A DNA stretch of 64,000 nt from Chiloscyllium plagiosum (Eukaryota): NCBI RefSeq assembly GCF_004010195.1, contig NC_057719.1, positions 85,916,056 to 85,980,055 on the forward strand, written 5' to 3'. Each line of letters opens with the position of its first letter. Within the stretch, counting starts at the first letter, position 1. Made by a program: the position numbers and the translations under genes. The notes beneath the pieces were generated by a model that worked only from the letters and a program-made list of their open reading frames with translations, was not told the origin of the DNA and searched no databases. Below are positions 5,819 to 55,398 of this stretch, one piece after another.

Positions 5819-6222
5819 CTATTTCTTACAGTCTAGTGAACCAAGTTTGGTCATTTTGTAGACAGCTATGTATTTAGTCTCTAATCTGTCCACAACCTGG
5901 CAGTTAAAATAGCCAGGGAGGGTCACTTCATGGAAAGAAAGAGATCCATTCCCACTTCGAAATTCGGAAGCCAGGTAAATCGTTGTTCGTTGGCTGCAGA
6001 GATGCCTCAGAGTGTCTACAAGTGCAGTGTAAGAAGATGAAGAATAGACAATATCCGACCCCAGGACGACATCGTAGTCGGTATTAAAGTTAATTAGGTC
6101 TTCACCCCAGGTCAGGGCACACACTTTTAAACGGTGCCTGCAGGCAAAAGGGACGTTAATGGAGATGTTGTTGTTTATTTGCCTCAGAATTGCTGGTTGG
6201 TCTGTCATGGTAACATTTCCAC
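5819..6222 (-). CDS. EEF1AKMT3: METTL21B/EEF1AKMT3-like methyltransferase copy A, coding exon 3
   Basis: Acceptor cttgttctcag|GT; encodes GNVTMTD...LTWG...YDVVLGSDIVY (DxxY)...TIYLAS...; stop at 5819; 404 nt; exons 171+112+404=687 nt in frame (228 aa). The symbol denotes the family, orthology not shown. Confidence 0.93.
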
Positions 6223-6609
6223 CTGAGAACAAGAACATACAAGGAGGGTTTATTCATAATATGCTCTTGATTCCATTTTGATCTCGCATTAGGTTCATCG
6301 AAACAAAATATAACCGCCTTCAAGGAACAATGTACGTCCATAAGAAGTTAGGAAGAGCAAGCTTTCTGACCCACTATTAAACTGATACTCAGACCACCTC
6401 TCCAGAAGCTACTGACAACAGTAATGTGAAAGCAATTGACACAAAGTATATATAATATTGAGCTATCGGGTACCCAGAAATTAGATTGATTTAAAATGAA
6501 GATTTTAAGACCACATTTGCTTTAAAGTATTTTAGTGCATGTTGATAGATGAGGAAATTCCAGCACTCGAATGTTTCAAACTTGAGGTCTTCAATAAGGT
6601 GTCGGTACT

Positions 6610-7825
6610 TAGAGTCATAGAGATGTATAGCATGGAAACAGACCCTTAGGTCCAACTCACCCATGCCAACCTAAATTAACCTAGAAAAATTTGTCAGCAC
6701 TTGGCCCATATCTCTCTAAACTTTTCCTATTCAAATAACCATCCAGATTTAAATTGCAATTATACCCGCCTCCACCATCTCCCTTGACAATTCATTCCAT
6801 ACACACACCACCCGCTGCGTGCCTCTCACCTTAAACCTATGCCCTCTAGTTCTGGACTTCCCCATCCTGTGGGGAAAAACCTTGACGATTTACCCTATTC
6901 CTCTCATGATATTATAAACCTCTATAAGGTCGCCCCTCAGCTTTCGTTGCTTCAGGGAAAACAGCCCTAGCCTATTCAGCCTCTATCTAATAGCTCAAAC
7001 CCTCCAGACTTGGCAACCTCCTTGTAAATATTTTCTGCATCTTTTCAAGTTTCACAACATCCTTCCAATAGAAGGGAGACCAGAATTGCATGTAATATTA
7101 CAAAAATGGCCTAACAAATGTCCTGAACAGCCATAATATGACCACGCAACTCTTATACTCAATGCTCTGACCAATAAAGGAAACCACACCAAATGCCTTC
7201 TTTACTATCCTATCTACCTCTGATTCATTTTTCATGGAACTATGAACCTGCACTCCAAGGTCGCTTTGTTCAGCAACACTCTCCAGGACCTTATAATTAA
7301 GTTTAAAAGTCCTGCTCTGATTTGCCTCACATTTATCTAAGTTAACATCCATCTGCCACTCCTGAGCCCATTTACCCAGCTGATCACAATCCCATTGTAC
7401 TCTGAGGTAATCTTCCTTACTGTTCACTACACTCCTAATTTTGGTGTCATCTGCAAACCTACTAGCTATACCTCCCATGTTCACATCCAAATCATTTACA
7501 TAAATAACAAAAAGCAGTGGACCCAGCACCAATCCTTGTGGCACACCACTGGTCACAGTCTGAAAAGCAACCCTTCACCTCTCACCTCTGTTTCTATCTT
7601 CCAGCAAGTTATGTATTCAAATGGTGAGTTGACCCTGTATTCCAAGTGACCTAACCTTACTAACCACAAGGAACCTTGTTGAATGCCTTACTGACATCCA
7701 AATGGATCACATCCACTACTCTGCCATTATCAATCCTCTTCATTACTTCAAAAAACTCAATCAAGTTTGTGAGACATGACTCCCCATGCACAAAGCTATG
7801 ATGACTATCCCTAATCAGTCCTTAA
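6610..7825 (-). mobile_element. CR1 LINE, RT domain plus 3' end
   Basis: ORF 7098-7556 TSGVPQGLVLGPLLFVIYVNDLD...FADDTKI; 3' tail ctctatgactct. Confidence 0.9.
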
Positions 7826-8742
7826 GTTGACACGGAGCTGGAACTGGATGAGATACATTGAAGGATACTGAAAAAAGTGAGAGTGCAAATTTCTGAGTCT
7901 TCCTGAAATTCATGGGCAGTGCCATTCATTCTGGATAATTGCAAATAAGAAAGAGAGAGCAAGAATTAACCAAGCAACTACAGGTCATTAAGTTTAAGTT
8001 CTAAACTGAGAAAATGATTAGAAATAATAAATTGAGATAGAATTAAAGACTTTGAGTTCAATTTGAGTTTGATTTATTGTTATCCCATGCCAAAGTACAG
8101 TGAAAAGTGTTATTTTGCATGCTATACGAGCAGATCATAATGTACAAAATGTATCAGGCTAGTAGAAGAGAGTATAGAATGCAATATTACAAACACAGAG
8201 AAGGTGCAGAGAGAAAGAGAGATCAACACTAAAATTTAAGCAGTCCATTCAAACATCTGACAACAGTGGGGAAGAAGCACTGGTCAAACTTTTATATCTT
8301 CTGCCCAATGGAAGAGGGTGGAAGAGAGTATAACTGGAGTGGTTTTATATTGGTTGCTTTCCAAGACAGCAGGCAAGTATAGATGGAGTCAATAGATGGA
8401 AGGCTGGCTTAAGTGATGAACTGGGCTGTATTCACGACTGTCTGTAGTTTCATGCACTCTTAGGAAGTGCAGTTGCCATATCACACTGTGATGCATCCAG
8501 ATAGGATACTCTCCATTGTGCGTCTATAAAAATTGGCAGGAGTCTTTGTGGATATGCCAAATTTCTTAGCTTCCTGAGGAAGTAGATGCATTGTTCTGCT
8601 TTCTTGACCATCATACTAATCGATGTAGCCTCAGAGTATCTACAAGTGCAGTATAAGAAGATGGGTGAGGTGGACCAGGACAGATTATTGATGGGTCATC
8701 ACTCCCAAAACTTGATACCCCAGACCATCTCTTCTTCAGCAT

Positions 8743-9090
8743 AATAGAATCCCTTCAGTGTGGAAATAGGCCATTTGGCCCAACATGTCCACACCGACCC
8801 TCCGAAGAGTAACCCACCTAGACCCATTCCCCTGACCTATTTCTCCACATTTACCACTGACTAATGCACCTAACCTACACATCCGTGAACACTATCGACA
8901 ATTTAGCATGGCCAACTCACCTAACCTGCGCATCTTTAGATTGCAGAAGGAAACCAGGGCACCCAAAGGAAACCCGTGCAGACACAGGGAGAACATGCAA
9001 ACTCCACACAGACAGTCGCCAAAGGCTGGAATCGAACCCGGGTCCCTGGCGCTGTGAGGCAGCAGTGCTAACCACTGAGCCACTGTGCCA
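8743..9090 (-). mobile_element. HE1-type SINE, full length
   Basis: Complete head (tggcacagtggctcagtggttagcactgctgcctcacagcgccagggacccgggttcgattcc) through tail. Confidence 0.9.
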
Positions 9091-9226
9091 CTCATCATTG
9101 ATGCAGACAGGGGCATGCACTCCACTCTACTTCCTGAAGTCAATGTCCAAATCCTTAATTTTGCTGATGTTTTTAAATCTATGCTGCTAATCATTCAATC
9201 TCTTTCCTGTACTCTGTCTCATCATT

Positions 9227-11170
9227 CAGTTCCAAACTTAACAGTCCCAACCTCCAACCTCCAACCTCATAGTCAGAGAACCTTGCACTGCTTGATTCTA
9301 TCTCCTACTGAAGGTTCACAAACCTGACTTCCCCAGTCAACCCATTGTCTCAGCCTCCTCCTGTCCCACTGAACCCATTTCTGCATACCTTGACCCATCC
9401 AGCCTGCCCCCCCTTAGTGTAGCAAATATCCACCTATGTTCAGGACACCACCCATGCCCTTCACTTCATCCAAGACTTTTGTTTCCTCAGCTCCCTACAC
9501 CGTATCTTCACCATGTAAATCCAGTTCCTGCACACATCTATCCACTGCGATGAAGGCCTCCAAGCCCTGCATTTCACCCTTTTGCACCATCACAATCAGT
9601 ACCCTTCCACTGACACCCTCATCTGCATGTCTAAACTGGTCCTCACCCTTAAGAACTTCTTCAAATCTTCCCATTTCCTCCAAACCAAACAGGCAGCCAT
9701 GGACACGTGCATCGTCCCCAGCTATGCCTGCCTCTTTTTCAGGTACATGGAACAGTCCATCTTCCACAGTTACACTGGTTCCACCCCCCACCTGTTCCTC
9801 TGCTACATCAATTGGTGCTACCATGTGTTCCCACAGGGACATTGAACAGTTCATCAACTTCACTAACATCTTTCACCCCGACCTCAAATTCACCTGGGCC
9901 ATCTCAGGCATGTCCCTCCCATTCCTGGACCACTCCATCTCCACCTCAAGTGACTGACTAACCATGGACATCTACTACAAACCCACCGACTCCCACAACT
10001 ACCTGCACTACACTTCCTCCCACCCGCCTCTTGTAAACATATCATCCCTTATTCCCAACTCCTCCGCTTCCTCTGCATCTGTTCCCAGGATGACCAATTC
10101 CATAATAGAAAATTGCAAATGGCCTCCTTCTTCAAAGACTGAAATTACCCCTCCCAAGTGGTTGATGATGCCCTCCAGTGCATCTCCTCCACTTCCCGCA
10201 CCTCTGCCCTTGAATATCACCCCTTCAAATGCAACAAGGACAGAACCCAACTCCCCCCCCCCACGTCCTTACCTTCCATCCCACCAACTTCCATATATAT
10301 TGCATCATCATCTGCCACTTCCGCCAGCTATAAACAGACCCCACCATTAGGGATATAATTCTCTCCCACCCCTATCGGCATCTTGGAGAGACCATTCCCT
10401 CCATGACTCCCTTGTCAGATCCACAACCCCCACCAGGCCACACTGCACACCCGGCACCTTCCCCTGCCAACACCAGAAGTGCAAAGCTTGCGCCCACACC
10501 TCCCCCTCACCTCTGTCCAAGGCGTCAAAGGATCCTTCCACATCCATCAGAGATTCACCTGCACTTCCACAAATGTCATCTACTGTATCCATTGCACCTG
10601 ATTGTGGTCTCCTCTACATCGGGGAGACAGGACGCCAACTTGTGGATGGTTTCAGAGAACACCTCTGGGACACCTGCACCAACCAACCCCACCACCCCAT
10701 GGATGAACACATAAGACCCCCTCCCACTCCATAAAGGACATGCAGGTCCTGGATCTCCTCCATCACTAAATCCTAACCACCTGACACCTGGAGGAAGAAC
10801 ACCTCATCTTCCACCTTGGAACCCTGCATCACACAAGATTAATGTGGATTTCACCAGTTTCCTCATTTCCCCTTCCCCCACCTTATCCCAGTCCCAAGCC
10901 TCCAACTCAGCACCACCCACTTGACCTGCCCATCATCTTTCCCAACTATCCATTCCACCCTCATCTTTGACCTATCACCTTTCCCCCCACGTTCATCTAC
11001 CTATTGCATCCTCAGCTACCTTTCCCCAGCTTTACGCCTCTCCCATTTATCTCTCAGTCCTCCTGGCCCACATGCCTCATTCCTGATGAACAGCTGATGC
11101 CCAAAATGTCAATTCTCCTGATCCTCGGATGCCGCCTGACCTGCTGTGCTTTTCCAGCACTACACTCTTG
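9227..11170 (+). mobile_element. Penelope-like retroelement (degenerate RT plus GIY-YIG), 5' truncated, 16-bp TSD
   Basis: QTKQAAM...PSYACLF, DIYYKPTDSHNYL, FTCTSTNVIYCI...LYIGETGR motifs; decayed hammerhead 11083-11110; direct repeat actctgtctcatcatt at 9211-9226 and 11171-11186. Confidence 0.9.
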
Positions 11171-12209
11171 ACTCTGTCTCATCATTGTTCTGACCTATAA
11201 TGGTGTCATCAACAAATGTGTAATGGGAGTTCAGGCAGACTTTGGTCACACACTCGTGAATGTTTAAGTAGTATAATAAGAGGCTGAATATGGAATCTTG
11301 CAGAGCAGTAGTGCTAAGGATTATCATGGAGGAGGTGTTGTTATGTCTTCTTACTGATTGCAATGTATGGGTCAGGAGGTCAAGGATCCAGTTACAGAAG
11401 GGGGAGCTGAGACCAAGGTCTCACAGTTCGGAGACGAGTTTGATTGAAATTATGGTGTTGAATGTATATCTGTAGTCAATAAGTAAGACCTGACATTGGT
11501 GTCATTGTTGTCTAAGTGTTCCATAGATGAGTGTAGGACCAGAGAGATGGCATCTGCCATTGACCTGTTGCAACGTTAGACAAATTACAAAAGATCAAGG
11601 TAATATAGGAGGCTAGAGTTGATGTGAACCATGACTAATCTCTCAAAGCACTTCATAATTATGGAGGTCAGTAATACTGGGCAGTAGTCATTGGGGTATG
11701 TTGCATGAATTTTCTTTGGCACTGGGATGATGGTGGTCTTCTTAAAGCAGGTAGGGACTTCAGCTCATAGTAAGGAGCATTTAAAGATGTTAGCAAATAC
11801 TCCCGCCAGCTAGTCCACATAATAGTCATATAGGTAAATCCAGATTAATGAAGGAGGGATGGATATATTAAGGGAAATTGTGATTAACTAAATTGTTTGA
11901 CTTTTTTGAGGAGGGAACAGGGAGGGTTGATGAGGGTCATACTGGCAATTGTGTGTGCACTGACTGTAAAAAATAATTTGATGCAGTGCAGTACACACTG
12001 TGAGAACTATGAACAGAATTAGAGCTGTGGAATGAAAGCAATAGTAGAAATGGAGGTACAGTATTGACTCAGTGATTTGAAAAATTCCTATAATTTTGCT
12101 AAAGACTTGTGTTGCAGAATCTATCACCACCAGCCCACCAACAGATCCACACCCCCCATCCCCCACACCCCCCCCCCCCCACACACACCAAGCCAAGCTG
12201 TTATTAGCT

Positions 12210-13550
12210 TGACAATATGCAAACATGCCCAGTAATACCTTTTACACAAAACAAAACCTGTGTCCAACCAATAATAGTCACTCCATTGGTCCACTTTCAA
12301 TCATCAGTAAAGCAATAATCTGCTTACTGATGCTAAACATGGGTTCTGTTAAGGCTACTTAGTTCCTAACCTCTTTACATCCTTCGTTCAATTGGACCAA
12401 ACTGCTGAATTCCAGAAGTGATTTGCACATAATTGCACTTGATATTAAGGCTACACATGATGGAATGTGGCATCAAGTATTTCTGGAAAAGCTGGAATCA
12501 ATAGGAATCCAGAGGAAAGCTTTTCTCCTGTTTTGAGTAATACCTGGTGTAACGGAAGATGATTCTGTTTGTTGAAGGACCACCATCTCAGTTCAAGGAT
12601 ATCTGTCAGATGTTCTTCAAGATTATGTCCTAGGTTTAACCTTCTACGGTTGATGGAACAATGATATTCCCTCTATCATAAGGTCAGAATTGGAGATGGC
12701 CACTGATGATTGCACAGTATTGAGCATCTGCAATACTGCATGACTCTGCAAAGACTGAAGAAGTTCATATCCAAAATCTTGCAAAATCTGGACAATATCC
12801 TGGCTTGGACTGACAAGTGGAAAGCAACATTTAAACCACAGAAGTGTCAGGCAATAACAATTTCCAACAAGAAAGAATCTAACCATCGCCCCTTGACAGT
12901 CAATGACATTACCAAATCTGAATCCTCTATCATCAACATCCTGAAGGATGCCTTTGACCAGAAAATGCATTGGATTAGCCATATAGGTACTGTGGGTACA
13001 AGAGCAGGTATCTTGCTGTGAGCAACTAACCTTATCAAAAGAGCCTGTGGTCTACCTACGAGACACAAGTTTGGAGTGTGATGGTATACTCCCAACTCCC
13101 AACTCCCATGAGGCTGGAATTGAATCTGAAGTATAGTTCCAACAACACTCAAGGAAGTTTGACACCATCCAGCATGAAACAGCCTACACAATTGGCACCA
13201 GACATCCAATCCCTACATTATTCAGTAGCATTAGTGGATACCAACCATAAGATGAACTACAGAAATTCATCAAAACCTTTTAAACTTCATCATAGATACC
13301 CACCGCTACTTCTGGCATTAAATACATGGAAGCATCACCACTTACAAGATCCCTCCAAACTCCTAACCACCCCATTTAAAATATCTCATCATTCCTTCAG
13401 TGTTGCTAGGTCAAAATCCAGGAATTCCCTTCCTTGTATCATTAGTCTATAGTGAATCAAGAAGGGAGCTTATCACCACTCTCTCTATGGCAATAAATAA
13501 TGGCCCAGCCAGGGATGGCTGCAACCCATGAATGAATAGACAAAAAAAAA
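12210..13550 (+). mobile_element. Old CR1-group LINE 3' fragment
   Basis: IALDIKA, DDCTV, AWTDKWKATFKPQKCQ; tail cccatgaatgaata plus poly(A). Confidence 0.7.
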
Positions 13551-14059
13551 TACACACAGGCAAGATCACATTCAGAATGCCCAAATGACAATTAAATTGC
13601 CAGTGTAAATCTTTCCTGGAATTAGCATCATTATATTCAGGTTTATCAGGATACTGTTGTCCAATTGTAGAATCTCATCTTGCATTGTGTGCTTTGTAAG
13701 CACGAGCTCATTGATAAATCTCAATATCTTGCTTGCAGTAAACAGTTGAATTGACATGGTGATTGATATGATCAACCAGTCATTGGGATGTATGACCTAC
13801 ATTATTGGGGATATTCTCCATTGTAAAGATTCTGCCAAATAGAGTTAACTTGCCAACCAGTCAGCACTCTCCTTTCAAGCAGTATAAATGTTGGTTCCAA
13901 CATGAATTTGCATTCTGATGCAATGCCTAGATGTATGCAAAACAAAATTTTGAACAAAATGTGTATTTTCATCAGCAATTCCCAAATATTTAATTGGAGG
14001 AACTCTCCACTCACGCAATGCTCAATTTATTTTTACATAAACAGCCTGGTAATTCTGCA

Positions 14060-15200
14060 GTGGTTAAGGAGCTAAGTGAAGTGGCGGTAAGGTGCAGTTG
14101 GGTGTCATCAGCATGCATGTACAAATTAATGCCATATTTTGGATAGTGTTAGTGAAGCTGTATGTCAATATAAAACAGAAGGAACTAAGAATAGACCCTC
14201 AGGGGACACCCAGGTTTATGCTGCAGGAACTGGAAGAAAACTCTTTGTAAATGATTAATGAAAATAAAATACTGTGTATGCTGCAAATCTGAAATCAAAA
14301 GAGGTTTGCTTGAGAAACCCAACTCATCTGGCAGCATCTGTGGAGAGAGAAACAGAGTGAATGTTTTGACTCCAGCATGATTTTTCTTTGAAGCTGAAGC
14401 AAGATGGGACAGTCATGGATATTGAGCTGCTGAAAGGATGCAGAGACAAGTGGAACATAGGGTTTGTGAAATGATAAAGGTCATTTAGAGATTACAATTG
14501 TAGGATAAAAGGCAAAAGGAGTGGTAATTGTTAGAGAGAAAACAAGGATTAGATCCATAGTAAGTGCCAGTAACATTTGTCTCCAGTTCCAAAGAACAGC
14601 TGAGACTTTTGGAATGTTACTGTCGTATTATTGTAACATGTATTCTGCCTACCACTGGATTGTTAAGAATCATAACAGGTAAGAGCAAGATGGAATGGTC
14701 AAGTGCATCAATTCTGATGACAGACCAAGAAGGACACAGAAGGATCTGCAGTCAATAATTTGTGGCTTTGATCAGAAAAATTTTGGCAATTGACAGTGGT
14801 GGAAGCTTAATAGGAGGGATTGAAACGTGGTAGTCATGAAAGATAGGTCTGAATTAGGGAGTCAAGAATGAGATACCAAATTTTGGGAGAGAAAAGGGAA
14901 ATTGACAAGGAGCTAAGGTTTTTCTTTTCTGTATCTGAGGAGAGAGATGAGGTTGACTGATGGAAAATAGGAGAAACTTACTAGCATTATTCTCTAACAT
15001 GGGAAGTGCTGAGTGAGTTTTGGTGATGTGCAGTTTAGTGGGAATTATGGTCAAGGAAGCAGGTGGTGGGTCTAATGACAAGCAAAACTGGGAGATGAAA
15101 TTAGGGTGAATATGGGAGGAACTAAAGATCACAATTCTAGGGAAGGGGCATCCTTATAGGACGCTTGACCTGGTAGGTCTGTGGACAAAAAGGACCTGGC
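14060..15200 (-). mobile_element. Degenerate L2-like LINE with embedded PLE end (~14260-14520)
   Basis: Reverse complement tacatgcatgctgatgacacccaactg (YMHADDTQL) and ggtgtcccctgagggtct (GVP-x-GS). Confidence 0.5.
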
Positions 15201-15621
15201 AGAGACCACTTATTGGATGGTATTGACCTTTGTGGAAAATGTAGACCTACATTCCTGGCACAACTTGATATAAATGAAAATGAAAGAGACAGGGCAAGGG
15301 ATATGATGCAGATGGTAAAGGAAGATAGGTTAAATCATTAGATGTTAGAAGAATAAGGATTGACTTCATGAAACATATCAAATTGCAATGGTTTGAGCAA
15401 GTAGGTGTGGAGAAACCTCCTGTCTGGGGAATGTAGAAGACGATTCACAATCTCAGAAGGAAGGGCTGATCATTTAGGCAGGATTACGCAGTTCATTGCA
15501 TGCTGAACTTTGAAATTCTGTATTCTAAAAAGTTGTAGTCTTTCAGTCATTGAGTTTATTCATGAAAGATCTGGGTTAGACAAATGATTGCATAGTACGG
15601 TCAGTAAGAGATATGGGGTTA

Positions 15622-16110
<489 letters not shown>

Positions 16111-24182: not shown

Positions 24183-24595
24183 TTACATTAGGAACCAGTC
24201 CTCAGGACCTCTTCCGATTTTGGTCATTTTGTACACAGTAATATCCTTGTCCGCTAACTTGTCAACAACCAAGCATTTAAAGTACACGGGTAAAAGCACG
24301 TCATGAAAAGATAGGGAGCCATTTCCTTTTCGGAATGCGGAAGCCAGGTAGATGATGGTATCTGGATGAGCGAGATAATGCAATGTTCTGATCAGTGAGG
24401 AGTACGAAGCTGAGCTGTAAACAAGATCCGAACCCAGAATGAAGTCATACTCGTTGGTAAATCTAATGTGGTCTTCACCCCAAATCAGGGGGCGGACATT
24501 TATACGGTGTCTACAGGCAGCAGGGATGTTGATGGCGATGTTGTGTTCTATCTGCTGCAGTGCGTTCGGCTGATCTGTAAAGGTAACATTTCCAC
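24183..24595 (-). CDS. EEF1AKMT3: METTL21B/EEF1AKMT3-like copy B, coding exon 3
   Basis: tcttcgtcttgtcag|GT; GNVTFTD...LIWG...YDFILGSDLVY...IYLAS; 413 nt; total 171+112+413=696 nt (231 aa). Confidence 0.93.
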
Positions 24596-26629: not shown

Positions 26630-26787
26630 CCAAACCACGACATTCTGGATCAGTGGTGCTGGAAGAGCACAGCAATTCAGGCAGCATCCGAGGACATGCT
26701 GCCTGAATTGCTGTGCTCTTCCAGCACCACTGATCCAGAATCTGGTTTCCAGCATCTGCAGTCATTGTTTTTACCAAACCACGACAT
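26630..26787. mobile_element. PLE-derived fold-back insertion: perfect 46-bp inverted repeat plus 33-nt tail, 14-bp TSD
   Basis: Arms 26642-26687 and 26696-26741, 8-nt loop; ccaaaccacgacat at 26630-26643 and 26774-26787. Confidence 0.9.
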
Positions 26788-27171: not shown

Positions 27172-27333
<162 letters not shown>

Positions 27334-28714: not shown

Positions 28715-28885
28715 TGCGTCCCAGACATAAGCAGACACACCCAGGTTAGCGCTCGTGTTCCGAGCGACCTTTAAGCAGTAGCCACAGAACGCGAAATTGT
28801 TCTGATTCATGTAATAGATCGAGGGCTGAATCTTGTCCATGGTGTCGTCGTCGTTGGAATTCTGCGAGGAGCTAGCGGTGGTCAT
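28715..28885 (-). CDS. EEF1AKMT3: Copy B coding exon 1 (an in-frame upstream ATG at 28909 is an alternative start)
   Basis: 57 codons like copy A; FAFCGYCLKV...LGVSAYVWDA|gtaagt. Confidence 0.9.
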
Positions 28886-29283: not shown

Positions 29284-29598
29284 GTAAAAACAATGACTGC
29301 AGATGCTGGAAACCAGATTCTGGATTAGTGGTGCTGGAAGAGCACAGCAGTTCAGGCAGCATCCATGGAGCTTCGAAATCGACGTTTCGGGCAAAAGCCC
29401 TCCATCAGGAATAAAGGCAGTGAGCCTGGAGCATGGAGAGATAAGCTCGAGGAGGGTAGGGTGGGGAGAAAGTAGCATAGAGTACAATGGGTGAGTGGGG
29501 GAGGGGATGAAGGTGATAGGTCAGGGAGGAGAGGATGGAGTGGATAGGTGGAAAAGGAGCTGGGCAGGTAGGACAGGTACGGACAAGTCATGGGGACA
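29284..29598 (-). mobile_element. Young PLE 3' end with hammerhead motif (29381-29408)
   Basis: Reverse complement ctgatggagggcttttgcccgaaacgtc plus the terminal tail shared with 4736, 26696 and 38252. Confidence 0.85.
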
Positions 29599-36398: not shown

Positions 36399-36399
36399 A

Positions 36400-38236: not shown

Positions 38237-38497
38237 ATCCTGCTCATCTAGGTGGTAAAAACAATGACTGCAGATGCTGGAAACCAGATTCTGGATCAGT
38301 GGTGCTGGAAGAGCACAGCAATTCAGGCAGCATCCGAAGACAGGCAAAATCGACGTTTCGGGCAAAAGCCCTTCATCAGGAATAAAATATTCCGGATGAA
38401 GGGCTTTTGCCCGAAACGTCGATTTTGCCTGTCTTCGGATGCTGCCTGAATTGCTGTGCTCTTCCAGCACCACTGATCCAGAATCCTGCTCATCTAG
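38237..38497. mobile_element. PLE-derived fold-back insertion: 98-bp inverted repeat (1 mismatch) plus 35-nt tail, up to 15-bp TSD
   Basis: Arms 38287-38384 and 38388-38485; atcctgctcatctag at 38237-38251 and 38483-38497. Confidence 0.92.
38352..38379 (-). ncRNA. Minimal type I hammerhead ribozyme motif (PLE-associated), intact core
   Basis: CUGAUGA-A-GGGC-UUUU-GCCC-GAAA-C-GUC; palindromic ACGU stem III as described for PLE hammerheads. Confidence 0.8.
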
Positions 38498-41146: not shown

Positions 41147-41257
41147 GAAATTGTTCTTTGAAAGTTCATTGAGAAGGAGAACATCCGGCTTTCCAGGAAG
41201 ACGGTGATTCAGTTGAAATCGGCACTGCAGTGACGGGGGCTTTAGCCACCCTACTTG
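41147..41257 (+). pseudogene. Inverted METTL21B-like pseudogene, exon 2 remnant
   Basis: ctttacag|GAA ATT GTT CTT TGA AAG TTC ATT GAG AAG GAG AAC...GCC ACC CTA CTT G|gtgagt; 111 nt; in-frame stop replaces Cys; 1-nt deletion in motif I. Confidence 0.85.
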
Positions 41258-42166: not shown

Positions 42167-42548
42167 ATGGAAATGTTGCCACGACAAATCAGTTAAGCGT
42201 CCTGGAACAAGTACAAAACAATGCCATAATTAACATTCCCGGGTGTGCAGACCACATGTACAAATCCACCGTTTGACACTGGGCAAGGGTCACACTAACT
42301 TTCTTCGGGATCATGACTTCATCCTTGCTTCGAACGGTGCGTCTTCCTTTCAATCCCACGCCAAGTTAATGCAGACATTGTGCAACCACTCAAACCAAGG
42401 CAATTTATTTTGCTGATGAATTGAAACTTTCGGATCAAAGCGATCTTTTCGACCAAAATCTGTATATTTTGATTGCAGCGTTGTTGACAGCATGGAGGAC
42501 ATGGAAATCTATGTATTCAAAATGGCCAAACGTGGGATGGCCTTCTAA
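42167..42548 (+). pseudogene. Inverted METTL21B-like pseudogene, exon 3 remnant
   Basis: ctcttatcag|; GNVATTNQLSVLEQVQNNAIINIP / CRPHVQIHRLTLG...HDFILASN / IYFA / YFDCSVVD...IYVFKMAK...TAA; about 3 frameshifts; DxxY lost. Confidence 0.85.
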
Positions 42549-44671: not shown

Positions 44672-45189
44672 AGCCCTACAGAATGATAGGGCGAGATAAA
44701 ATCAGTGTTTGCCTCTTGTTGGCTCTCTCAGCACTTGTTCCAAATAGACAGTCAGTGGAATAATTAGATTTTTATGACAATCCAGCAGTTCAGTGGTTCA
44801 AAGTTACTGAGACTAAATTCACAATTCAAATATATTAGCGAACTTTATATAATATATAAGTGGAAGCAGAAAATCGTCTTCAGCCCCCTAGTTCCCGGTC
44901 CACGATTCACAAAGAATCTGATTGATTTGATTGCCGCTTCTGTGGTGTATTTGTATAAGTATGGTGAACTGGAAATTTAAGCGCCCGATTACGCAATGGT
45001 GACGTCGCTTGGACACTTTTGGGCCGAGAAACTGCTTCGTCGAACTTTGCTGCCTATAGAATAAACAACTCCTTAATAAAGCACTTGCGGTTTAACATTT
45101 CGGCCTCTGTTCTTGTAAATTAGCTTCGACCTCACTTTCTTGTCTGCAACACCTGCAACCAATCTTACCCTTCCCATAACCCTAGATGG

Positions 45190-45640
45190 CTTGTCCAACT
45201 TGCCAGGATTGGAGGACTTGATGCATAGGAAGAGGCTGAAAGGCTGAGGCTGTTTTCCTGGAGCCTCGAATGCTGAGGGGTGACCTTATGGAGGTTTATA
45301 AAATCATGAGTGGCTTGGATAGGGTAAATAGACAAGGTCTTCTCCCTGGGATGGGGATTCCAGAACTAGAAGTCATAGGTTTATGGTGAGAGGGGACCTA
45401 AGTGGCAACTTTTTCACGAAGAGGGTGGTGTGTGTATGGAATGAACAACCAGAGGATGTGGTGGAGGCTGGTACAATTGCAGCATTTAAGAGGCATTTGG
45501 ATGGGTATATGAATAGGAAGGGTTTGGAGGGATATGGGCCGGGTGCTGGCAGGTGGGACGAAATGGGTTGGGATATCGGCATGGACGGGTTGGACCGAAC
45601 GGTCTGCTTCCATGCTGTACATCTCTATGACTCTATGATC
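45190..45640 (+). mobile_element. CR1 LINE 3' end
   Basis: GDLSGNFFTKRVVCVWNE...FKRHLDGYM; tail ctctatgactctatga. Confidence 0.85.
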
Positions 45641-47210
45641 CGACTTTACATTGCTCGTGGGCATGAAAAAAATTCCAAACATTAATAACCATCTGAGAAA
45701 AGAAATTACTTCTCATCTCCATCGCAAATTGAAGACACTTTATTGCTAAACAGCTCTTGGTTCCCCACAATTGGAAACATTCTCTCAACATTCCCTCAAC
45801 CAACTCCACTTAGAGTTCTCCACTTTAACAAATTCACTTCAAATTTTTCTAAAGTCCACCAGCATGCTCATTTTCTCATGATATAACTCAATCATCCCAG
45901 GAATCAACCTAACTAGTTTTCTCTGGACTCTATCCAATGCCAGTATATTGCTCTTTAAAAGATATTGTAAAGTTGGGATGTATAATCGATGGGGTCTCAC
46001 GAAAATCGTTTACATTCCCTTTGCAATAAAGGCCATATCCCAGTTAGCAACCTATTTCATCATCATGCCTGTTTGCTCTTTGGCTCATGTACAATGACAG
46101 CATGATCCTTTGGACCTAAGGCAGAGATCAAACACGGAATATGGTCTTCAGGCGAAGAATGTTAATTATATCAAATGGATTCCACGCCAGTGAGGAGTAG
46201 CTGTATGCCTTCTCTGAATAAAAATCGTAAAGCAGTAATTCAAAATATGCATTTCTACTCTAATCTCTGAAGTGCAGCATCGACTCCTCTAATTCTATGT
46301 TACTGCTAACAATGCTTTACGAATTGAACACGCTTCCCCGTTTCAGTGCAATGGCACAAGCGTGCAACTGAGTTGTCCAGTGGTGGCCCGCTGTTAAGAA
46401 TCATCAAACGCACTTAAAAAAAACTGTAAATAGGGTCGCGTTTTAATGAACTTGCATCTGTTTAGGTTTAGTATTATACAGTGCAGGAAATGGTCCACAT
46501 ATTGCAAAATCAAGCTTTAATTTGCAAATTTAGTCATTATTATTGTTCTGTCTATAGTTAATCGATTTGAACCTTTGTTTTTATTGCAACAAATGTAAAG
46601 CTGCCATTATTTAATCTGCACCACCTACTCCAATTAAGCTCTGGAACACATTCAAAGGTTATTATCTTTGTTGATGACTGTCAGTATAATTAACGCTCGT
46701 GGATGAGTTGAAGACCAGAATATGTCAACTATTTCCCATCTCTAAAATACTATTGAGTGTTTCTATCAAAGTCTAAATATATGCACTGCTCACGCATGAT
46801 GCCTGCTTGTCTTGTAATTTATTTCTGTCAACGAAAAATAAGCTCCTGCAGTTTTACTTTGTTTGTATCTCAGTTAATGGCACTTATTTGATGCAGCAAA
46901 AATGAGCACGGCCGCAACATAAAGCCCAAAACAAAATTATTTCAGTAAAAAAAAATGCCTTTGCAAAATTTCTCAGGTTCAGCTATGCAAAAAGAAGAAA
47001 CGACACCAAGGATTTTGCTTCCTGAAAAACATCTTTTTTCACTACAGAATGCGGATTCCAATCCTTAGCAGATTAAATTAGGAAGCTTCATTCCAGAACC
47101 GGATAGAACTTCAATTTCACCTTCACTCAGATAATTAAATTCTCACAAAGCTGTGAGTAGAGTACACAGTTTGTGGATTGCAACGTGAGGAAATAAATAT
47201 GCATCAGAAA

Positions 47211-47605
47211 TTAGTGCCCATGGCGCGGGTGTTTTCTAGTCACTTTGTAAATGCAATTACTTCCACTTGTATGAAGTATTTCGCTGTTAAACTGCTTGGG
47301 TAAGAGGTCCTCGTGAAAATTGATGGCTCCTTCTCTGGCCGCCATGTTAGAAGACATATAAACAATAGTTTTGTCCGTGGAGAGGTACAACAGTGTCTGC
47401 AAAAGACCAGGAAATTGCGAGGGGTTGTACACAATATCTGAACCCAGAATATAATCAAAGTCATTTGGAAAGTTGCACTGATCGTCACCCCAAGCTAGGG
47501 TCCGGATTGATGAACGGTGTCTGCTGCTGGCTGGAATGTTAGCTTGCACGTTGTATTCTATTTGGTTCAAAACATAGGATCTGTCCGTCAACGTGACATC
47601 TCCAC
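47211..47605 (-). CDS. EEF1AKMT3: METTL21B/EEF1AKMT3-like copy C, last coding exon
   Basis: ttgtttttaccag|GT; GDVTLTD...NVQANIP...LAWG...FDYILGSDIVY...LLPKQF; 395 nt; total 132+112+395=639 nt (212 aa). Confidence 0.93.
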
Positions 47606-48320
47606 CTGGTAAAAACAATGATGTCACATCATTATCTGAGCACTGCCTCATATTAAAAGGTATGTAATGCAGATTTCTCACTCAATGAATTGCAACACCG
47701 TTGGCTATGGGCTCCTAATGACTTTGAACCAAAAAGCCAGACAGAAGCTGCATGCACCTATTCTGTGTGTCATAGCTGCAACTTAAGCTTCAGAGGAAGA
47801 TCAAGTGTAATCAGATCTTTCCAAAATCATATCCCTAACAAGAAGAATCAATTCTTCTCGAAATCACTGTCCACTCGCCTTACATGCGAGTATCAGCGCG
47901 TTGGATAATTCATCCGTTTGTTTGACTTATCCCAGCATTTTATAATACGCTCAGCTTGTGAGCATTTCACCGCGTGTGTCAAAATATTAGACTACAGCGG
48001 TCTGCCATTGTAGGCTGCTCAACCCTCTCGACCCTAAAGAATAAAACGGACGAAGAACAGTACAGGGCGCGGGAACACGATTATTAGAACGTCCACGAGC
48101 CTTACTAGTATCAATTGTAAGATTGCTCCAAAGCCTTGAAATTGGATAACAAATTAGCTTTCCCTATTGAAATTAATACAGAAATTGCTGAAGACTCAAC
48201 AGGTCATGGCGCAAGTAATGGCAAAATTTCAAAACCTGAGGCTTTTGTCAGAGCCTTATACCAATATTTGCATGAATAACTAAAGAAACATCGCCAGTTT
48301 TATTTTGTTCCTGATATTTA

Positions 48321-48476
<156 letters not shown>

Positions 48477-49431
48477 TTAGCGCAAACGGATTTACACATG
48501 GATATTAATAGATTTGCAATGATCCAAACACATTGATGCCAATGGGTTGACAATCTTTGCAAATCAGTACAATAATGTGGGAATATCATCACAGCGCAAG
48601 TAAAAACAGTGGCACTCCTGGCCTTGTAGATTAGAGATATGGAAATCCTTTCCAAAACATGGCGCGGTTTTGACCGTGAAAACATACCACGTTAACTCAC
48701 GGTTCTGATGTCTCAGTCAAGCTGCCATCACTTTTATTGCTACCAAAGACATTCAGCTGAGTTCGGAACCTCATAATCCAGTGAGACCGCAAAGTCTAAA
48801 AACATCCGAATGGCATATGGCCCAGGAGATTCACGATAACAAAGCAGAGATTGTCAAAAGCCAAGCGTAACGTGCACAATTCTTTCAGAATTAGGGCGTT
48901 CTGTTTCGGTTCAGCCCCTGCTCTGTCTTCAAATTGTAACAGATCGAAAAGGCAAAAAAGGGAAGGAAAATTGAAGACGAGCTGCAGAAGAAATGGGAAG
49001 TCTATTTGGAGTCATCAATTTTGGAGCACATGATATTGGCGATAAAGGATTTTGCGGGGTGGGGGAGAGGTTATTCCTGTTACAGAAATTCCAGAAGTAT
49101 GGAACAAAGTAAAAAGACAGTATGACAGATTACATGAAGCAAGTGTTAATCGTTGCATAGGTAGCAGATCGAAAACTGATGCAAAATTCCCAATACCAAC
49201 CCCTTGGGAATTCCAATTCACACCTTCCCCGAGTCTAAGATAGCCATTAACCATTTTTTAGCTGATTTCCTATCACTCAATCAATTTCCTATCCATATTT
49301 CTACATTCAATGAACTGGGATAATTATGGGGGTTGATAGAAAGTTAAACTAGAAAGGAGAATGGCCGTGTGCAGATTGCATAGCCTGGAGAGGAAAGAAT
49401 TAGGAAATGAGATAAAAATCAGGTCAAGGTA

Positions 49432-49741
49432 AGATTAGATTACTTACAGTGTAGAAACAGGCCCTGCGGCCCAACAAGTCCACACCGCCCCGCCGAAACG
49501 CAACCCACCCATACCCCTACATTTACCCCTTACCTAACACTACGGGCAATTTAGCATGGCCAATTCACCTGACCTGCAGGTCTTTGGACTGTGGGAGGAA
49601 ACCGGAGCACCCGGAGGAAACCCACGCAGACACGGGGAGAATGTGCAAACTCCACACAGTCAGTCGCCTGAGGCTGGAATTGAACCCGGGTCTCTGGCGC
49701 TGTGAGGCAGCAGTGCTAACCACTGTGCCACCGTGCCGCCC
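49432..49741 (-). mobile_element. HE1-type SINE, young full-length copy
   Basis: Intact head ggcggcacggtggcacagtggttagc with CpGs retained. Confidence 0.9.
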
Positions 49742-50034
49742 ACAAATTGGGACAAGGATGCAGTAAATGTACATGGAATATTAACTTATCTCATAGAGGA
49801 ATAAGCTGTTAAAAATGAGAGTGCAGGAACAACTATAAATATAAGATTAAACTGCCTGTACGGCACTGCACACAGTATTCAAAGCACAATCGAGGAACTT
49901 GATGTAATAAGCTATAGTGACTAACTATATGTGGCAGCAATAATTCTATCATAAAATAAACTGTACTGGCAATTGTTTATGGAAGGTGGTGATGTAACCA
50001 CAAAGACAGGAGTGGAAGAAGTGTAGCGCAGACT

Positions 50035-50094
50035 ACAGTGTAGTGAAGACTAAAGAAATTACACAGTGTAGTGAAGACTAAAGAAATTACACAG
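50035..50094. repeat. 28-bp perfect tandem duplication
   Basis: acagtgtagtgaagactaaagaaattac x2. Confidence 0.9.
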
Positions 50095-50159
50095 CAAATT
50101 GAGGGTCAGAAGCAGAATCAGTATCGATGACAATAAAAGAGTTAAAGGTATCTTACTTC

Positions 50160-51560
50160 CTTAAAAAAAGTTTTTTTCACAGAACTTAGGTGTCACCGGC
50201 TGCTAGCATTTTTTGCCCATCCCATTTGCCTTCGAAAAGGTGATAAGCTGCCTTCTAGGACCGTTGCAGTCCTGGTGGTGCAGGTGGACCCATAGTTCTA
50301 GTAGGAAAAAAGTTCCAGGAATTTGAAACTGATACGGAAGAAATAGTGATAAATGTTCGGATGAGGCTTGTAGGAGAACTTGAGATCGTGTTTAGCTCCA
50401 TGCTGCCCTTGTATTTCTAGGTGGAAGCAGTCGTGGGTTTGGAAGGTGGTGTCAAAGCAACCTTGGTGAGTTGCTGCAGTGCATTGTGTTGGTGGCACAG
50501 TGTTTCATTGTTGGCCAGTGGTGGAAAGAGTAATGTTTAAGATAATGGATGAGGTGGCAATAAAGGTTTCTGCTTTGTTCTGGATGATGTTGAACTTTTA
50601 GAGTGCTGCTGGAACTGCGTTCATCCATGCAACTGGAAAGTTACCCATACCACTTTTGATTTGTAAATGATGAGAAGGCTTCAAAGAGCGAAGTTCAAGT
50701 TTCTGACCTATTTCAACCATAATAACTTCAATGATGTTGATAGTGGGAAATTCAATGATATTAATGCCATTAATTGTAAAGGGAAAATTATTAGATTCAC
50801 TTTTCTTGGAGCTGGTCATTACCTGGTACTTATTTAGTGTACACGTTACCTGTCACTTACCAGCACAAGTCTGAAAATTATCCAGGTTTTGTTCCATAGA
50901 CTTGAGGAGTCACGAATACTTTGGAATACTATCACATCACGAATGAACAATTCTTCTCCTGACCTTATGACGGAGGCACGCCTCAAGACAACCCCGCTGA
51001 CTATATTTGGGCAGAGGACATTGTTCTGAAGAACTCCTGGTGCCTTGTCCTAGGACTGAGATGACTTAGTTTTCAACAAACTGCAATCACCGTCCTTCAT
51101 GTTAGTAATTATGCTTACCAGTGGGAAATCATTCTCATTGACTGCAGACTTTTTCTACCTCCTTGACCTCATATTCGGTCAAATGCTACCTGGCTGTTGG
51201 AGTTGGTCAGTGTCACATCACCACATAGTTTGTTCTCCCTTCGTGATATTTGCACAAGACTATAACTTGATCAGGAGCTGAGTGGCACTGGCAAATTATT
51301 GTTTGATACGAAGCTCTTGATAGCACTAATGATGGTCCTTTCTATCACACTGTTGATAATCAAGAGTTGACTGATGGGACAGTAATTGGCCAGGTTGAAT
51401 CAGGCCCTTTCTTTGTGGCCAGAAATGGCCTTGGAAATTTTCTGCAATGCCTGGTAGATTGCTGTATTGTGGCTGTACTGAAACACCTTGGCTAGGAGAT
51501 GGAAGTTCTGGAGCACATGGCTTCATTAACACTCAGAATGTTGTCTGAACATAGGGCGAA
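50160..51560 (-). mobile_element. Old CR1-group LINE (same family as 12210-13550)
   Basis: KPCAPEL...PANYCPIS-like motifs, KKSESNNFPFTINGINI. Confidence 0.65.
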
Positions 51561-52469
51561 CTTGCCAAACATTTTGAATGGAAGACTACGTTTCAGATTT
51601 TCTCTTTTTGAGGGTGAGAGGAAGCAGAGACAAAGTTTCATAATGACAAAGTTTGACAGAACATTGAAAATTAACTTAAATTAGATAATTGCAAAACAAT
51701 AAATTGACAATATAAATAACTGAGTAATTAATGAGAATAACTATTAAAATGCCAAGAAGCAGAAACAGTTAATTAAAACTGGCCTTTTCAGGAAACAATC
51801 AAGATTGTGAGGAGATAGAATAGAGTCCTGATTATCAGGAAGGGGAGTGGGGGGATGCTGCGCCTAAGTTGTGAGTTGAATTTAATTAACACTACAGATA
51901 CCTCTAGCGACACACACTCCAAGACTGTCTCTCTGGAGTTCATATAAAAATGGAAGTTGCAAACAAGCGGGCTTTCAGTTCAGGTGTTTATTTTGTTCAC
52001 TCAGTACAAAGTTTTCAAACACACTCCACACCCCAGCCCCAATCCATCCTTCAAACGTAAAAACACTCACAATCCTTCATTTACCTTCTCTAACATACAC
52101 ACACCAGCTCACTCCATTTCCAGTCCTTTCTCTACAGATAGTCTCACACCCTACTCTCACTCCCCATTCGCCCACACTAGTTCTCCCTCATGCATTCACA
52201 CTCCCACTCCCTCATTATCTTCCCCCCACCCAAGCAGTCATGTATTTCTCCTTCCCATATAAATCCCCACTCCATCTGATTAACTCAGTCATCCCTGATG
52301 CACATACACATCGCTCGCATGCATCTTTACTCACCTTACCCTCAATCACTCATTGCATATTCCTTGGTCATTCGCTTGCACCACTCATTCACGTATTCCT
52401 TCTCACTTCATCCTCACTCATTCTACAATCCACTCACTCTACGCGACCTACTCATTCACTCACACCCCT

Positions 52470-53090
52470 CTCACTCGCGCGCGCGCACTCACGCACACAC
52501 ACACACAGACACACGCACAGACATACACAGACACACACACAGATACACGCGCGCGCACACACAGCTCCACACACAGAGATACACACCCGCGCGCGCCCAC
52601 ACACAGATACACACATGCGCGCACACACAGATCCACACACACCGATACACGCGCGCGCACACACAGATCCACACACACCGATACACGCGCGCGCACACAC
52701 AGATCCACACACACCGATACACGCGCGCGCACACACAGATCCACACACACCGATACACGCGCGCGCACACACAGATCCACACACACCGATACACGCGCGC
52801 GCACACACAGATCCACACACACCGATACACGCGCGCGCACACACAGATCCACACACACCGATACACGCGCGCGCACACACAGATCCACACACACCGATAC
52901 ACGCGCGCGCACACACAGATCCACACACACCGATACACGCGCGCGCACACACAGATCCACACACACCGATACACGCGCGCGCACACACAGATCCACACAC
53001 ACAGATACACTCGCGCGCGCACTCACACACACACACACACAGACCTACACAGACCCACACACACACACACACAAACAAGCGCGCGCGCAC
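52470..53090. repeat. 36-bp CA/CG-rich minisatellite (10 perfect units ~52621-53000) in a (CA)n/(CG)n field
   Basis: Unit acacacaccgatacacgcgcgcgcacacacagatcc. Confidence 0.95.
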
Positions 53091-53424
53091 CGTAATCCCC
53101 CTTCCTTAACTCTGACCCAGATCCATGCTGAACTCGGGAGCTCTCCGCGGAACAGTTCAGCACCTCAACTCGGGATCCTCTCGACTGCGTGCAACCTCAC
53201 CCTATCACTGAGAGGAATGCTGTCACCCCGGTTTCCCAAGGAGAGCGGCATTACCGCCATCGGTGGTGCTCAGGAAACGCAGGCAGGCAGCTTCGCGTAG
53301 CTCACTGCTGCCCTGAATCAGTGGCCACTTCTTTTTGGTTTGGTTGCAGTAAGGAATCGTTATGTGCTCAAACTGCCCTGTTTATCATTTCAAGTCTACT
53401 TAGATCATTAGCTTATGAAATAAG

Positions 53425-53555
53425 GAGAGAACGTGAGGACTGCGAGATGCTGGATATCAGAGTCAAAAATATGTGACGCTGGAAAAGCATAGCCGGTCAG
53501 GCAGCGTCCGAGGAGGAGGAGAATCTAAGTTTCGGACATAAGCCCTTCATTAGGG
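53425..53555 (-). mobile_element. PLE terminal fragment with decayed hammerhead (53526-53553)
   Basis: Reverse complement ctaatgaagggcttatgtccgaaactta. Confidence 0.7.
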
Positions 53556-53606
53556 CTCACGCCTTCGCTAGCACCCACTTTGTGAAGGTTCTAAAAAAAC
53601 TACCTT

Positions 53607-53820
53607 TAGATCTCTACAACAAGGAAGCAGGCCATTCAGCCCATATTGACCCTCAGAAACGCATCCCATCCAGACCAGTCCCCCATTCCCTATAACCGTG
53701 CATTGGCCATGGCTAATCCAGCTAGCCTGCGGCAGGAAACCCACACAGACAATCGTCCGCGGTTGGAATTGAACATGGATCCTTAGCACCGTGAGGCAGC
53801 AGTGCTAACCACTGAGCCCA
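53607..53820 (-). mobile_element. HE1-type SINE, internally deleted
   Basis: gaggcagcagtgctaaccactgagcc head; aggccattcagcccat tail. Confidence 0.7.
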
Positions 53821-55266
53821 CCTCATTGACCATTGCTGTTTTCAGTCATCCGTTCTGACACCTGGTGAGTGCCTTGATCTCATTTCTATTGATGAAAAGG
53901 TTTTAACCATATTTGGTCACTTTTCTGCATGGAAGCCGCTATTTAAATGTAACTTATTCTGTCCTTTAAAACTGCAAAGGTTTCAAGGAATCAAACACAA
54001 AAAAAACCCTTCGATCTGGATAGATTGCATCTCCATATCTCAAAGAAAGATAGGGAAGACAGGGCAAAGCATTATTACAAACAGAATGTTTAACCAGAAG
54101 ATGAGTAGCGTAAACTGGTTAACAAATTGGCATTTGATTAATGTGAGTTCTTTTCCAAAGAAGGAACGGGAACAAATGCAGAAGCTGTTGCTTAACATTG
54201 GATACGTGGTTAGAAAACTAATCTGGTCCCCGCCAATCAGGTGTGATATTAAAACAGCTTTAAAAAGTCAAAATGTAACAGAGTTCATAAATTCTTCTTC
54301 CTGAAAGAGAGAAAAGGAACTAAGGTAACGCAGTAGACCGAAGTGTCTATTGTTCACATACTCTAAATGGTTTAGAATGGAGAATCAGAATGTATGGTTA
54401 AAAATTTGTGGGATATGGCAAATTGTGGGTTACATTGTAAAGAAAGGAGACTTTTGAGACAGTACAGGGTGACTTAAATAAATTTCATACAATAGGAACG
54501 CAACTGTCAAATAATGTAGATGAGCGCCCGACAATGCATCTTGGAAGGAAGAATACAAATAGGGAAACTTTGTACTCCTTAAAGCAAGGTGGATAAATTG
54601 AGAGGTGTAAGGGTGCAGATGAACAAGTGATTCAAAATATCGATACAGCAGTCTAACAGAAAAATGCAAAGGACTCTAATGTTCATTCTTGGAGGAGGAT
54701 AGAATTGCGAAGAACAGAGGTCAGGGTAAAACATGTACAGAACTTTCGAGGACATTTGCTAGGCCTCCATGAATTTAATTCTACGTTAATAAAGGAGAAG
54801 GTTTTAAAAAGGATTTTCAGGGATTATATCAGAATGAAGAGGTCCAAACTGTCAAAAAAAGAATGATCGAGCTGGAAAAGAGCGAAGTGAGTGGGAACGG
54901 AATCTGCTCAAGCAGGCTTCGTCAGGATGTTCTCACTTGAAATGTATTATTTACACGACCAGAGCATCAAGAGAAAGCAGGTAAACCCGCGAGGAAGAAA
55001 AGAAGAGCCGATGTGTTCAGTGGGTGAGGACGAATGAATGACTTCTGGTCTGGGCCATAAACAATGGAATTGAATTGAATTTATTGTCACGTGTACCGAG
55101 CCACAGGGAAAAGTTTTGTCTTGCGAGCAATATAGGCAGAACCAGTGAATGGTCCTCCAAATGCTGTGCACATCCACGTCAAATCATCCAGCAAATTAGT
55201 TGCACACTGGTTAGGAAGTATGCTTTCAAATCCAAACATTGTGTTGCAATCGGCTGCTACACTTAC

Positions 55267-55398
55267 AGGTTCCCAGACAAAAGCCGAAACGCCTAGGTAC
55301 GCTCCTTTAAAGGTGGAGATCTTCAAACTGTGTTCACCAAAGTCATAGTTCTTCTCCTCCAATTCCAAAGGGGGGTTGCTTTCCGCCAAGCTACTCAT
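55267..55398 (-). CDS. EEF1AKMT3: Copy C first coding exon (exon probably extends as 5' UTR to an acceptor at 55493)
   Basis: agaATG; MSSLAESNPP...YDFGEHSLKISTFKGAYLGVSAFVWEP|gtaagt; 44 codons. Confidence 0.88.

What the first reader, a model, noticed from the sequence alone, without database searches (positions are those of the whole stretch)
5819..55398. Tandem expansion of divergent METTL21B/EEF1AKMT3-like lysine methyltransferases (3 intact genes plus 1 pseudogene)
Seen: three complete GT-AG genes with a 112-nt exon 2, motif I (ELGSGTG), post-I (VTxTD), WG and DxxY (GSDIVY/GSDLVY). Known: human METTL21B is a single gene that methylates eEF1A Lys165, and features such as LCx[16 protein letters not shown] and TIYLAS fit METTL21B better than METTL21A. 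Inference: against the recalled human sequence, all copies lack the N-terminal FPREVGLFADSY segment, have Y/F instead of R before VW, and have different loops after DxxY. This suggests a shark-lineage birth-and-death family that may have new substrates, rather than the canonical ortholog.
Basis: partly seen in the sequence, partly recalled or inferred. Interest (0 to 1): 0.72.

Follow-up and report, generated by a model that had tools for sequence, protein, structure and literature searches.

The report
Ancient shark-and-ray protein-methyltransferase gene cluster
This shark stretch holds three intact genes and one dead copy from an old cluster of extra METTL21B-like protein-methylating enzymes shared by sharks, rays and chimaeras; they keep the catalytic core but have changed the loops predicted to grip the target, so they likely mark proteins other than the single known one.

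Summary
Observation confirmed: three intact minus-strand, three-exon METTL21B/EEF1AKMT3-like genes and one inverted, decayed copy. The window is the middle of a larger cluster of 9 genes plus the pseudogene in about 253 kb; the genome has at least 15 extra copies. The true ortholog lies on another contig, between TSFM-like and METTL1-like exons. The family is not shark-only or fast-churning: genes A and C have ray/skate orthologs, B spans both shark superorders, and a chimaera has its own extra copies. No bony-vertebrate extra copy was seen. All catalytic motifs are intact, and paralog dN/dS is 0.09-0.22. Of 80 sites conserved in true orthologs, 20 are lost in the extra copies, 15 of them in substrate-facing segments inferred from METTL21D, often re-fixed differently per orthogroup. 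Best reading: active lysine methyltransferases that likely have new substrates. No substrate or expression was shown. Public annotation already labels them 'EEF1AKMT3-like'; my literature searches found no paper on the expansion. This scan reported the same family earlier on another genome (e1-9973754).

The parts
55267..55398 (-). Gene A exon 1 (132 nt, ATG to the VW motif)
48344..48455 (-). Gene A exon 2 (112 nt, motif I)
47211..47605 (-). Gene A exon 3 (post-I, WG, DxxY, stop); PF10294 53 bits
39921..40042 (+). Pseudogene, weak exon 1 remnant (stop, frameshift, donor not intact)
   Evidence: tblastn E about 4 only
41147..41257 (+). Pseudogene exon 2 remnant (111 nt, in-frame stop and frameshift, AG/GT ends kept)
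42167..42548 (+). Pseudogene exon 3 remnant (frameshifts, stops, DxxY lost)
   Evidence: tblastn E 6e-13
28715..28885 (-). Gene B exon 1 (171 nt)
27177..27288 (-). Gene B exon 2 (112 nt)
24183..24595 (-). Gene B exon 3; PF10294 56 bits; whole protein identical to public model P0389
16941..17111 (-). Gene C exon 1 (171 nt)
15849..15960 (-). Gene C exon 2 (112 nt)
5819..6222 (-). Gene C exon 3; PF10294 62 bits
8628..8663 (-). 36-nt copy of part of gene C exon 3 (34 of 36 identical) inside C intron 2

Best explanation
The window holds three intact members and one dead member of an old METTL21B-derived gene cluster shared by sharks, rays and chimaeras, and each intact gene likely encodes an active SAM-dependent lysine methyltransferase that likely marks its own folded protein target rather than eEF1A Lys165. 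Shown: DNA-level duplication (same three exons, 112-nt exon 2), a separate canonical ortholog, conserved orthogroups, intact SAM-binding and DxxY/W catalytic motifs, and re-fixed residues in four or five surface segments. Inferred: SAM binds motif I/post-I/WG, the target lysine enters the W-DxxY pocket, and specificity is set by the N-terminal segment, the loop before the VW motif, the residues after DxxY, the beta5-helix loop and the last hairpin, as in METTL21D-p97. Changing these gave new targets, most likely abundant nucleotide-binding translation or chaperone proteins as for the other METTL21 enzymes, while the C43 ortholog keeps the eEF1A-K165 job.
For: Canonical ortholog present elsewhere, and Lys165 kept in 3 of 5 eEF1A-family genes, so 15 or more extra enzymes are not needed for that site. 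The extra copies form one branch (100/97) apart from canonical shark/ray (95/88) and bony rows (100/99) in a 46-row tree. Orthogroups: C with rays 100/100, B across shark superorders 100/99, A with a skate 97. Core identity to horn-shark orthologs is 78-86% against 87% for the canonical gene. NG86 dN/dS is 0.09-0.22 in 10 of 10 paralog pairs tried. Of 80 canonical-conserved sites, 20 are lost in extras, 15 of 26 in substrate-facing segments against 5 of 54 elsewhere (Fisher p 7e-6; 1e-4 without the N-terminus). Loops are about as conserved inside orthogroups as the rest of the domain (B 0.92 vs 0.89; A 0.87 vs 0.87; C 0.83 vs 0.85), with 10-15 fixed differences each. The METTL21D-p97 structure places the substrate among these same loops (PMC10339199 passages); 7BS KMTs are single-substrate and recognise 3D surfaces (PMC10238732 passages).
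Against: No substrate, activity or expression was shown. Segment borders were drawn after I had seen the site list (preceded), surface loops change more than cores in any case, and rows are not independent, so the p-value overstates the case. Several lost residues (Ala before the VW motif, Ala in motif I, Leu/Thr after DxxY) are shared with METTL21A, so they are not eEF1A-specific contacts. No METTL21B-eEF1A structure was seen among the PDB hits, so the interface is borrowed from METTL21D. dS is near saturation (1.0-2.5), so the dN/dS values are rough.
Confidence: 0.6

Rival explanations
1. Sub-functionalised eEF1A methyltransferases: the copies still target eEF1A-family proteins (Lys165 or nearby lysines), divided among tissues, stages, or the five eEF1A paralogs.
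For: The closest characterised relative acts only on eEF1A K165, and that region varies between paralogs (PMC5416902 passages). This genome has five eEF1A-family genes with K, K, K, A and R at that position. Core identity to the canonical gene is still 51-56%.
Against: The residues kept between shark and mammal orthologs in the presumed binding loops are replaced, and differently in A versus B/C; 15 or more enzymes against 5 possible targets.
Confidence: 0.25
2. Broadened or non-protein activity, or non-catalytic binding: the copies act as relaxed-specificity methyltransferases or SAM/protein binders, kept for dosage in a specific tissue.
For: Loss of the conserved N-terminal segment could loosen specificity (N-termini proposed as specificity elements, PMC5324768 passages); large clusters often reflect dosage (general knowledge).
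Against: The active-site Trp and the DxxY Tyr are each kept in 125 of 126 extra rows, and D/E in 126 of 126; orthogroup-specific fixed loops suggest specific partners rather than relaxation.
Confidence: 0.1
3. Nearly neutral duplicates preserved only by slow chondrichthyan genome evolution.
For: One copy has decayed, a neighbouring copy has a non-AG exon 2 acceptor in this assembly, and lineage-specific bursts occur.
Against: dN/dS about 0.2 at dS above 1, and open frames in orthologs across sharks and rays, whereas the real pseudogene shows a 1.67 substitutions/site branch and many stops.
Confidence: 0.04

Closest known systems
Human METTL21B / eEF1A-KMT3 (EEF1AKMT3; PDB 4QPN)
   Same: Best sequence and fold match (E 3.6e-53; Foldseek E 1.3e-23, rmsd 1.8 A, 47% identity); same Family 16 motifs. 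All copies share the three-exon plan of this genome's canonical ortholog.
   Different: Not at the TSFM/METTL1-linked locus; multi-copy; N-terminal P..LF segment absent; Ala-to-Ser before VW and in motif I; the loops after DxxY and after beta5 are rebuilt; substrate unknown.
METTL21A (HSPA-KMT), METTL21C, METTL21D (VCP-KMT)
   Same: Same fold and catalytic pocket; paralogs with a near-identical core but different substrates give the precedent for substrate switching.
   Different: More distant (E 1e-33, 8e-23, 7e-17); this genome has separate 21A-like (C7) and two more distant 21C/E-like (C6) loci.
Primate FAM86/eEF2-KMT expansion
   Same: A lineage-restricted multi-copy expansion of a Family 16 KMT (PMC10238732 passage).
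   Different: FAM86 copies arise from segmental duplication and are mostly pseudogenes; here most copies are intact, deeply diverged (46-63% within the window) and kept as orthogroups across sharks and rays.

Membership tests
Family 16 (MTF16) seven-beta-strand protein methyltransferases | PF10294 domain with motif I, post-I and 7BS fold | tested here: met
   model of the gene C ortholog P0013 has pLDDT 76.6 and matches 4QPN
Family 16 (MTF16) seven-beta-strand protein methyltransferases | [D/E]xx[Y/F] motif and the two conserved tryptophans | tested here: met
   3 of 3 window genes; W 125/126, second W 126/126, Y 125/126 of extra rows (definitions from PMC5324768 passages)
Family 16 (MTF16) seven-beta-strand protein methyltransferases | SAM-dependent methyl transfer to a protein residue | not testable with these tools
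   needs an in vitro assay
METTL21B subfamily (broad clade) | Groups with METTL21B, not 21A/C/D | tested here: met
   SH-aLRT 100 branch separates all METTL21B-like rows from the 21A-like outgroup
Canonical EEF1AKMT3 ortholog | Linked to TSFM and METTL1 (human linkage recalled; also named in the finding) | tested here: not met
   EF-Ts (C43:267.9 kb) and PF02390 (C43:363 kb) exons flank the C43 copy at 284-292 kb, not this C10 cluster
Canonical EEF1AKMT3 ortholog | Groups with bony-vertebrate METTL21B and keeps its conserved N-terminal and loop residues | tested here: not met
   (separate branch 100/97); 20 of 80 canonical-conserved sites lost
Canonical EEF1AKMT3 ortholog | Methylates eEF1A Lys165 | not testable with these tools
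   the target lysine exists in 3 of 5 eEF1A-family genes; activity untested

The most novel reading that the evidence does not exclude
Cartilaginous fishes own a private set of a dozen or more single-target lysine methyltransferases, each fixed on a different translation or chaperone protein since before sharks and rays split. This would be a lineage-specific methylation code on the proteostasis machinery, possibly tied to their urea/TMAO cell chemistry (speculation), and a natural series showing how 7BS enzymes switch substrate.
Probability: 0.2. Interest if true: 0.78.

Novelty: new variant of a known kind. Interest (0 to 1): 0.5.

Why it matters
Each human 7BS lysine methyltransferase has one substrate, and what sets that specificity is still unsettled (PMC10238732, PMC5324768 passages). 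A set of at least 15 paralogs with an invariant catalytic core and orthogroup-specific loops, next to an intact ancestral gene, is a ready-made series for testing which segments choose the target. It also predicts undescribed lysine methylations in cartilaginous fishes. The chemistry is probably ordinary; the surprise is the number, age and retention of the copies.

Tried and rejected
Expression: no RNA holder was listed for gene B exon 3. Run X1 covers introns and behaves as DNA. Age of the first duplication: AU tests rejected neither 'older than the jawed-vertebrate split and lost in bony vertebrates' (p 0.51) nor a monophyletic bony clade (p 0.61); the outgroup-rooted tree put the root among bony rows, a likely long-branch artefact. 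Four rows were dropped before the AU tests (two long chimaera rows, one long outgroup, one partial model). Placing the pseudogene (X at breaks) gave only 'B/C superclade', unresolved. Retrocopy origin rejected: all 15 models whose exon 2 was found with AG/GT ends have 112 nt, and introns are kept. Assembly artefact rejected: copies are 46-63% identical and B/C orthologs carry consecutive accessions in three other carpet sharks. Flank synteny: 150 of the 314 ORFs of 70 aa or more were scanned against Pfam; this gave a calpain EF-hand exon (closest calpain-3 type), a weak fibrinogen-C hit and transposon/ERV remnants, too little to place the locus. The canonical N-terminal segment is low-confidence in its own model too (residues 14-21 under pLDDT 50), so no structural role was shown. 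No complex prediction was run: no full-length eEF1A was available as an unaltered session sequence. Literature: searches (1 hit, unrelated; 12 hits, none on this by title or abstract; top 20 of 4,739, none holding the enzyme term; 0; 0); PMC8662637 has 0 occurrences of 'shark' or 'Chondrichth' in its main text. The supplement of the catshark atlas PMC11979771 could not be read and may hold tissue expression.
Full report
Observation. Six-frame motif scans and splice-site checks give three complete minus-strand genes (A 212 aa, B 231 aa, C 228 aa), each with GT-AG introns in phases 0 and 1 and a 112-nt exon 2. They are 46-63% identical. A fourth, decayed copy lies inverted on the plus strand at about 39.9-42.55 kb, with stops and frameshifts in exons 2 and 3 and a weak exon 1 remnant. 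All three exon-3 peptides pass the Pfam Methyltransf_16 cut-off.

Genomic setting. Searches of the own genome with B and A exon 3 returned 20 and 18 matches (lower bounds). Gene models built from fetched stretches give 9 genes plus the pseudogene within C10:85.749-86.001 Mb in mixed orientation, two more on C10 (86.78, 88.31 Mb), three on C13, one on C47 and one on C43. Thirteen of the 15 non-C43 models have three clean exons. One lacks a found exon 1 (assembly gaps nearby), and one has TG in place of AG at the exon 2 acceptor, though a 96%-identical public ortholog is whole. The C43 copy is the true ortholog: it keeps the N-terminal segment that aligns with human 4QPN (for its ortholog P0073), lies between an EF-Ts exon (267.9 kb) and METTL1-family exons (363 kb), and groups with all bony-vertebrate rows. 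The METTL21A-like (C7) and two more distant (C6) loci are separate.

Distribution and age. The profile search listed 120 of 337 hits; 119 carry shark, ray, skate or chimaera names and one is the lungfish canonical gene. Among the proteins listed, 15 from a sevengill shark and 11 from a horn shark share one chromosome-sized contig each. The HMMER search over 1.84 billion 50%-identity representatives (best 150 listed) put 19 unnamed rows in the METTL21B clade outside the canonical branch. Seventeen were looked up: 16 are chondrichthyan and 1 has no name. A lungfish query listed 120 of 348 hits, and the 22 bony rows taken into the tree all fell in the canonical branch. No bony-vertebrate extra copy was seen, within these listing limits. 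At least five different Callorhinchus proteins map to one 24-Mb scaffold. In the careful 46-row tree the extra copies form one branch (100/97), beside canonical shark/ray (95/88) and bony (100/99) branches, with chimaera rows inside the extras. C has ray and skate orthologs (100/100) and B spans galeomorph and squalomorph sharks (100/99). A groups with horn, white, smooth-hound and cat sharks and a skate (97). So A and C predate the shark-ray split, and the expansion likely began before the chimaera split (roughly 270-300 and about 410 million years; dates recalled, not from a call). Whether the first duplication predates the jawed-vertebrate split is unresolved.

Constraint. Core identity to horn-shark orthologs is 78% (A), 86% (B) and 85% (C), against 87% for the canonical gene. 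NG86 dN/dS between paralogs is 0.09-0.22 in 10 of 10 pairs, with dS near saturation. The pseudogene, by contrast, has a 1.67 branch. These are maintained genes. Direct expression evidence was not obtained.

What changed. In an alignment of 94 bony canonical, 9 chondrichthyan canonical and 126 extra rows, 80 sites are conserved in true orthologs; 44 are kept in at least 85% of extras, 16 are intermediate and 20 fall below 50%. The kept set holds motif I, post-I, both tryptophans and DxxY. The lost set (numbered on a mammalian row) is P17, L22, F23, Q44, V52, A53, L61, A84, L105, S132, L155, T158, K181, M182, E185, H186, T188, L204, N212 and N214. In METTL21D-p97 the substrate loop is held by the S2-H1 loop, motif II and the S7-H5 loop, with further contacts from the N-terminal part and last hairpin (PMC10339199 and PMC9942839, passages). 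Fifteen of 26 conserved sites in the equivalent segments are lost against 5 of 54 elsewhere. The segment borders were set after I saw the list and rows are related, so this is descriptive. Orthogroups fix their own residues there (11, 15 and 10 fixed differences for A, B, C), and the loops are no more variable inside orthogroups than the rest of the domain, which points to new constraint rather than relaxation. The model of the C ortholog matches 4QPN best; the loop before VW is low-confidence in both the paralog and canonical models, in line with a mobile substrate loop.

Mechanism. Shown: intact Family 16 catalytic machinery under purifying selection, beside an intact canonical gene and three eEF1A genes with Lys165. 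Inferred: active SAM-dependent lysine methylation (about 0.85) of folded protein targets, different from eEF1A K165 for at least some copies (about 0.65), most plausibly translation or chaperone proteins as for METTL21A-D (PMC10238732 passages). The main rival is division of labour over the five eEF1A-family proteins.

Known or new. METTL21B is described as vertebrate-limited, with mammal, reptile, amphibian and bony-fish examples (PMC5416902 passages). Automated annotation already names these genes 'EEF1A lysine methyltransferase 3-like'. Searches found no paper on the expansion, and the metazoan METTL survey does not mention sharks in its main text (PMC8662637, term search and passages). The library lacks most subscription papers. 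Papers were read as term-hit passages only, none in full.

Verdict. Real, old and maintained; members of the METTL21B clade but not the canonical ortholog; a new variant of a known kind with untested substrates. Interest 0.5.

Noticed in passing
window 8628-8663 (-): A 36-nt copy (34 of 36 identical) of gene C exon 3 sits in C intron 2 amid repeat-like DNA; possibly a templated repair or reverse-transcriptase template switch.
   Followed up: partly
G000:C10:86000018 region (L002/L003): The neighbouring A-like gene (70% identical to A in exon 3) has TG instead of AG at its exon 2 acceptor in this assembly, while a 96%-identical public ortholog is whole: recent splice loss, allele or sequencing error.
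   Followed up: partly
L041-L045 (C3, C20, C18, C27, C4): Five intron-containing eEF1A-family genes; position 165 is K, K, K, A, R. The C4 gene is divergent and may be a 42Sp50-like oocyte form (label recalled). A stop-ridden match at C27:14.08 Mb may be a processed pseudogene.
   Followed up: partly
L055:4782-5018 (-) and 586-825 (-), about C10:86.06 Mb: Calpain EF-hand exons (closest solved matches mu-like calpain and calpain-3) flank the cluster on the right.
   Followed up: partly
L048:4173-4568 (-); L058:3636-4572 (+); L049:1466-1708 (+): Left flank: a weak fibrinogen-C hit (below cut-off), endogenous-retrovirus integrase remnants and a hAT transposase remnant.
   Followed up: no
window 26642-26776, 4725-4823, 29284-29415, 38247-38485: A short, very high-copy palindromic element (97% self-complementary over 199 nt at 38287-38485), MITE-like; very high contig depth.
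   Followed up: no
P0082, P0089: Canonical METTL21B proteins of a sawshark and a devil ray are labelled 'elongation factor Ts isoform' in public annotation, suggesting merged or read-through models with neighbouring TSFM.
   Followed up: no
P0185, P0187: Kiwi and rhea proteins are named EEF1AKMT3, although PMC5416902 says the gene is absent in birds.
   Followed up: no
P0233, P0234, P0235, P0239, P0246, P0252: Unnamed long proteins with 2-6 tandem Family 16 domains among the representatives, outside the METTL21B clade.
   Followed up: no
G000:C6:1.39 and 1.43 Mb: Two neighbouring METTL21C/E-like genes (label by similarity level and recall).
   Followed up: no
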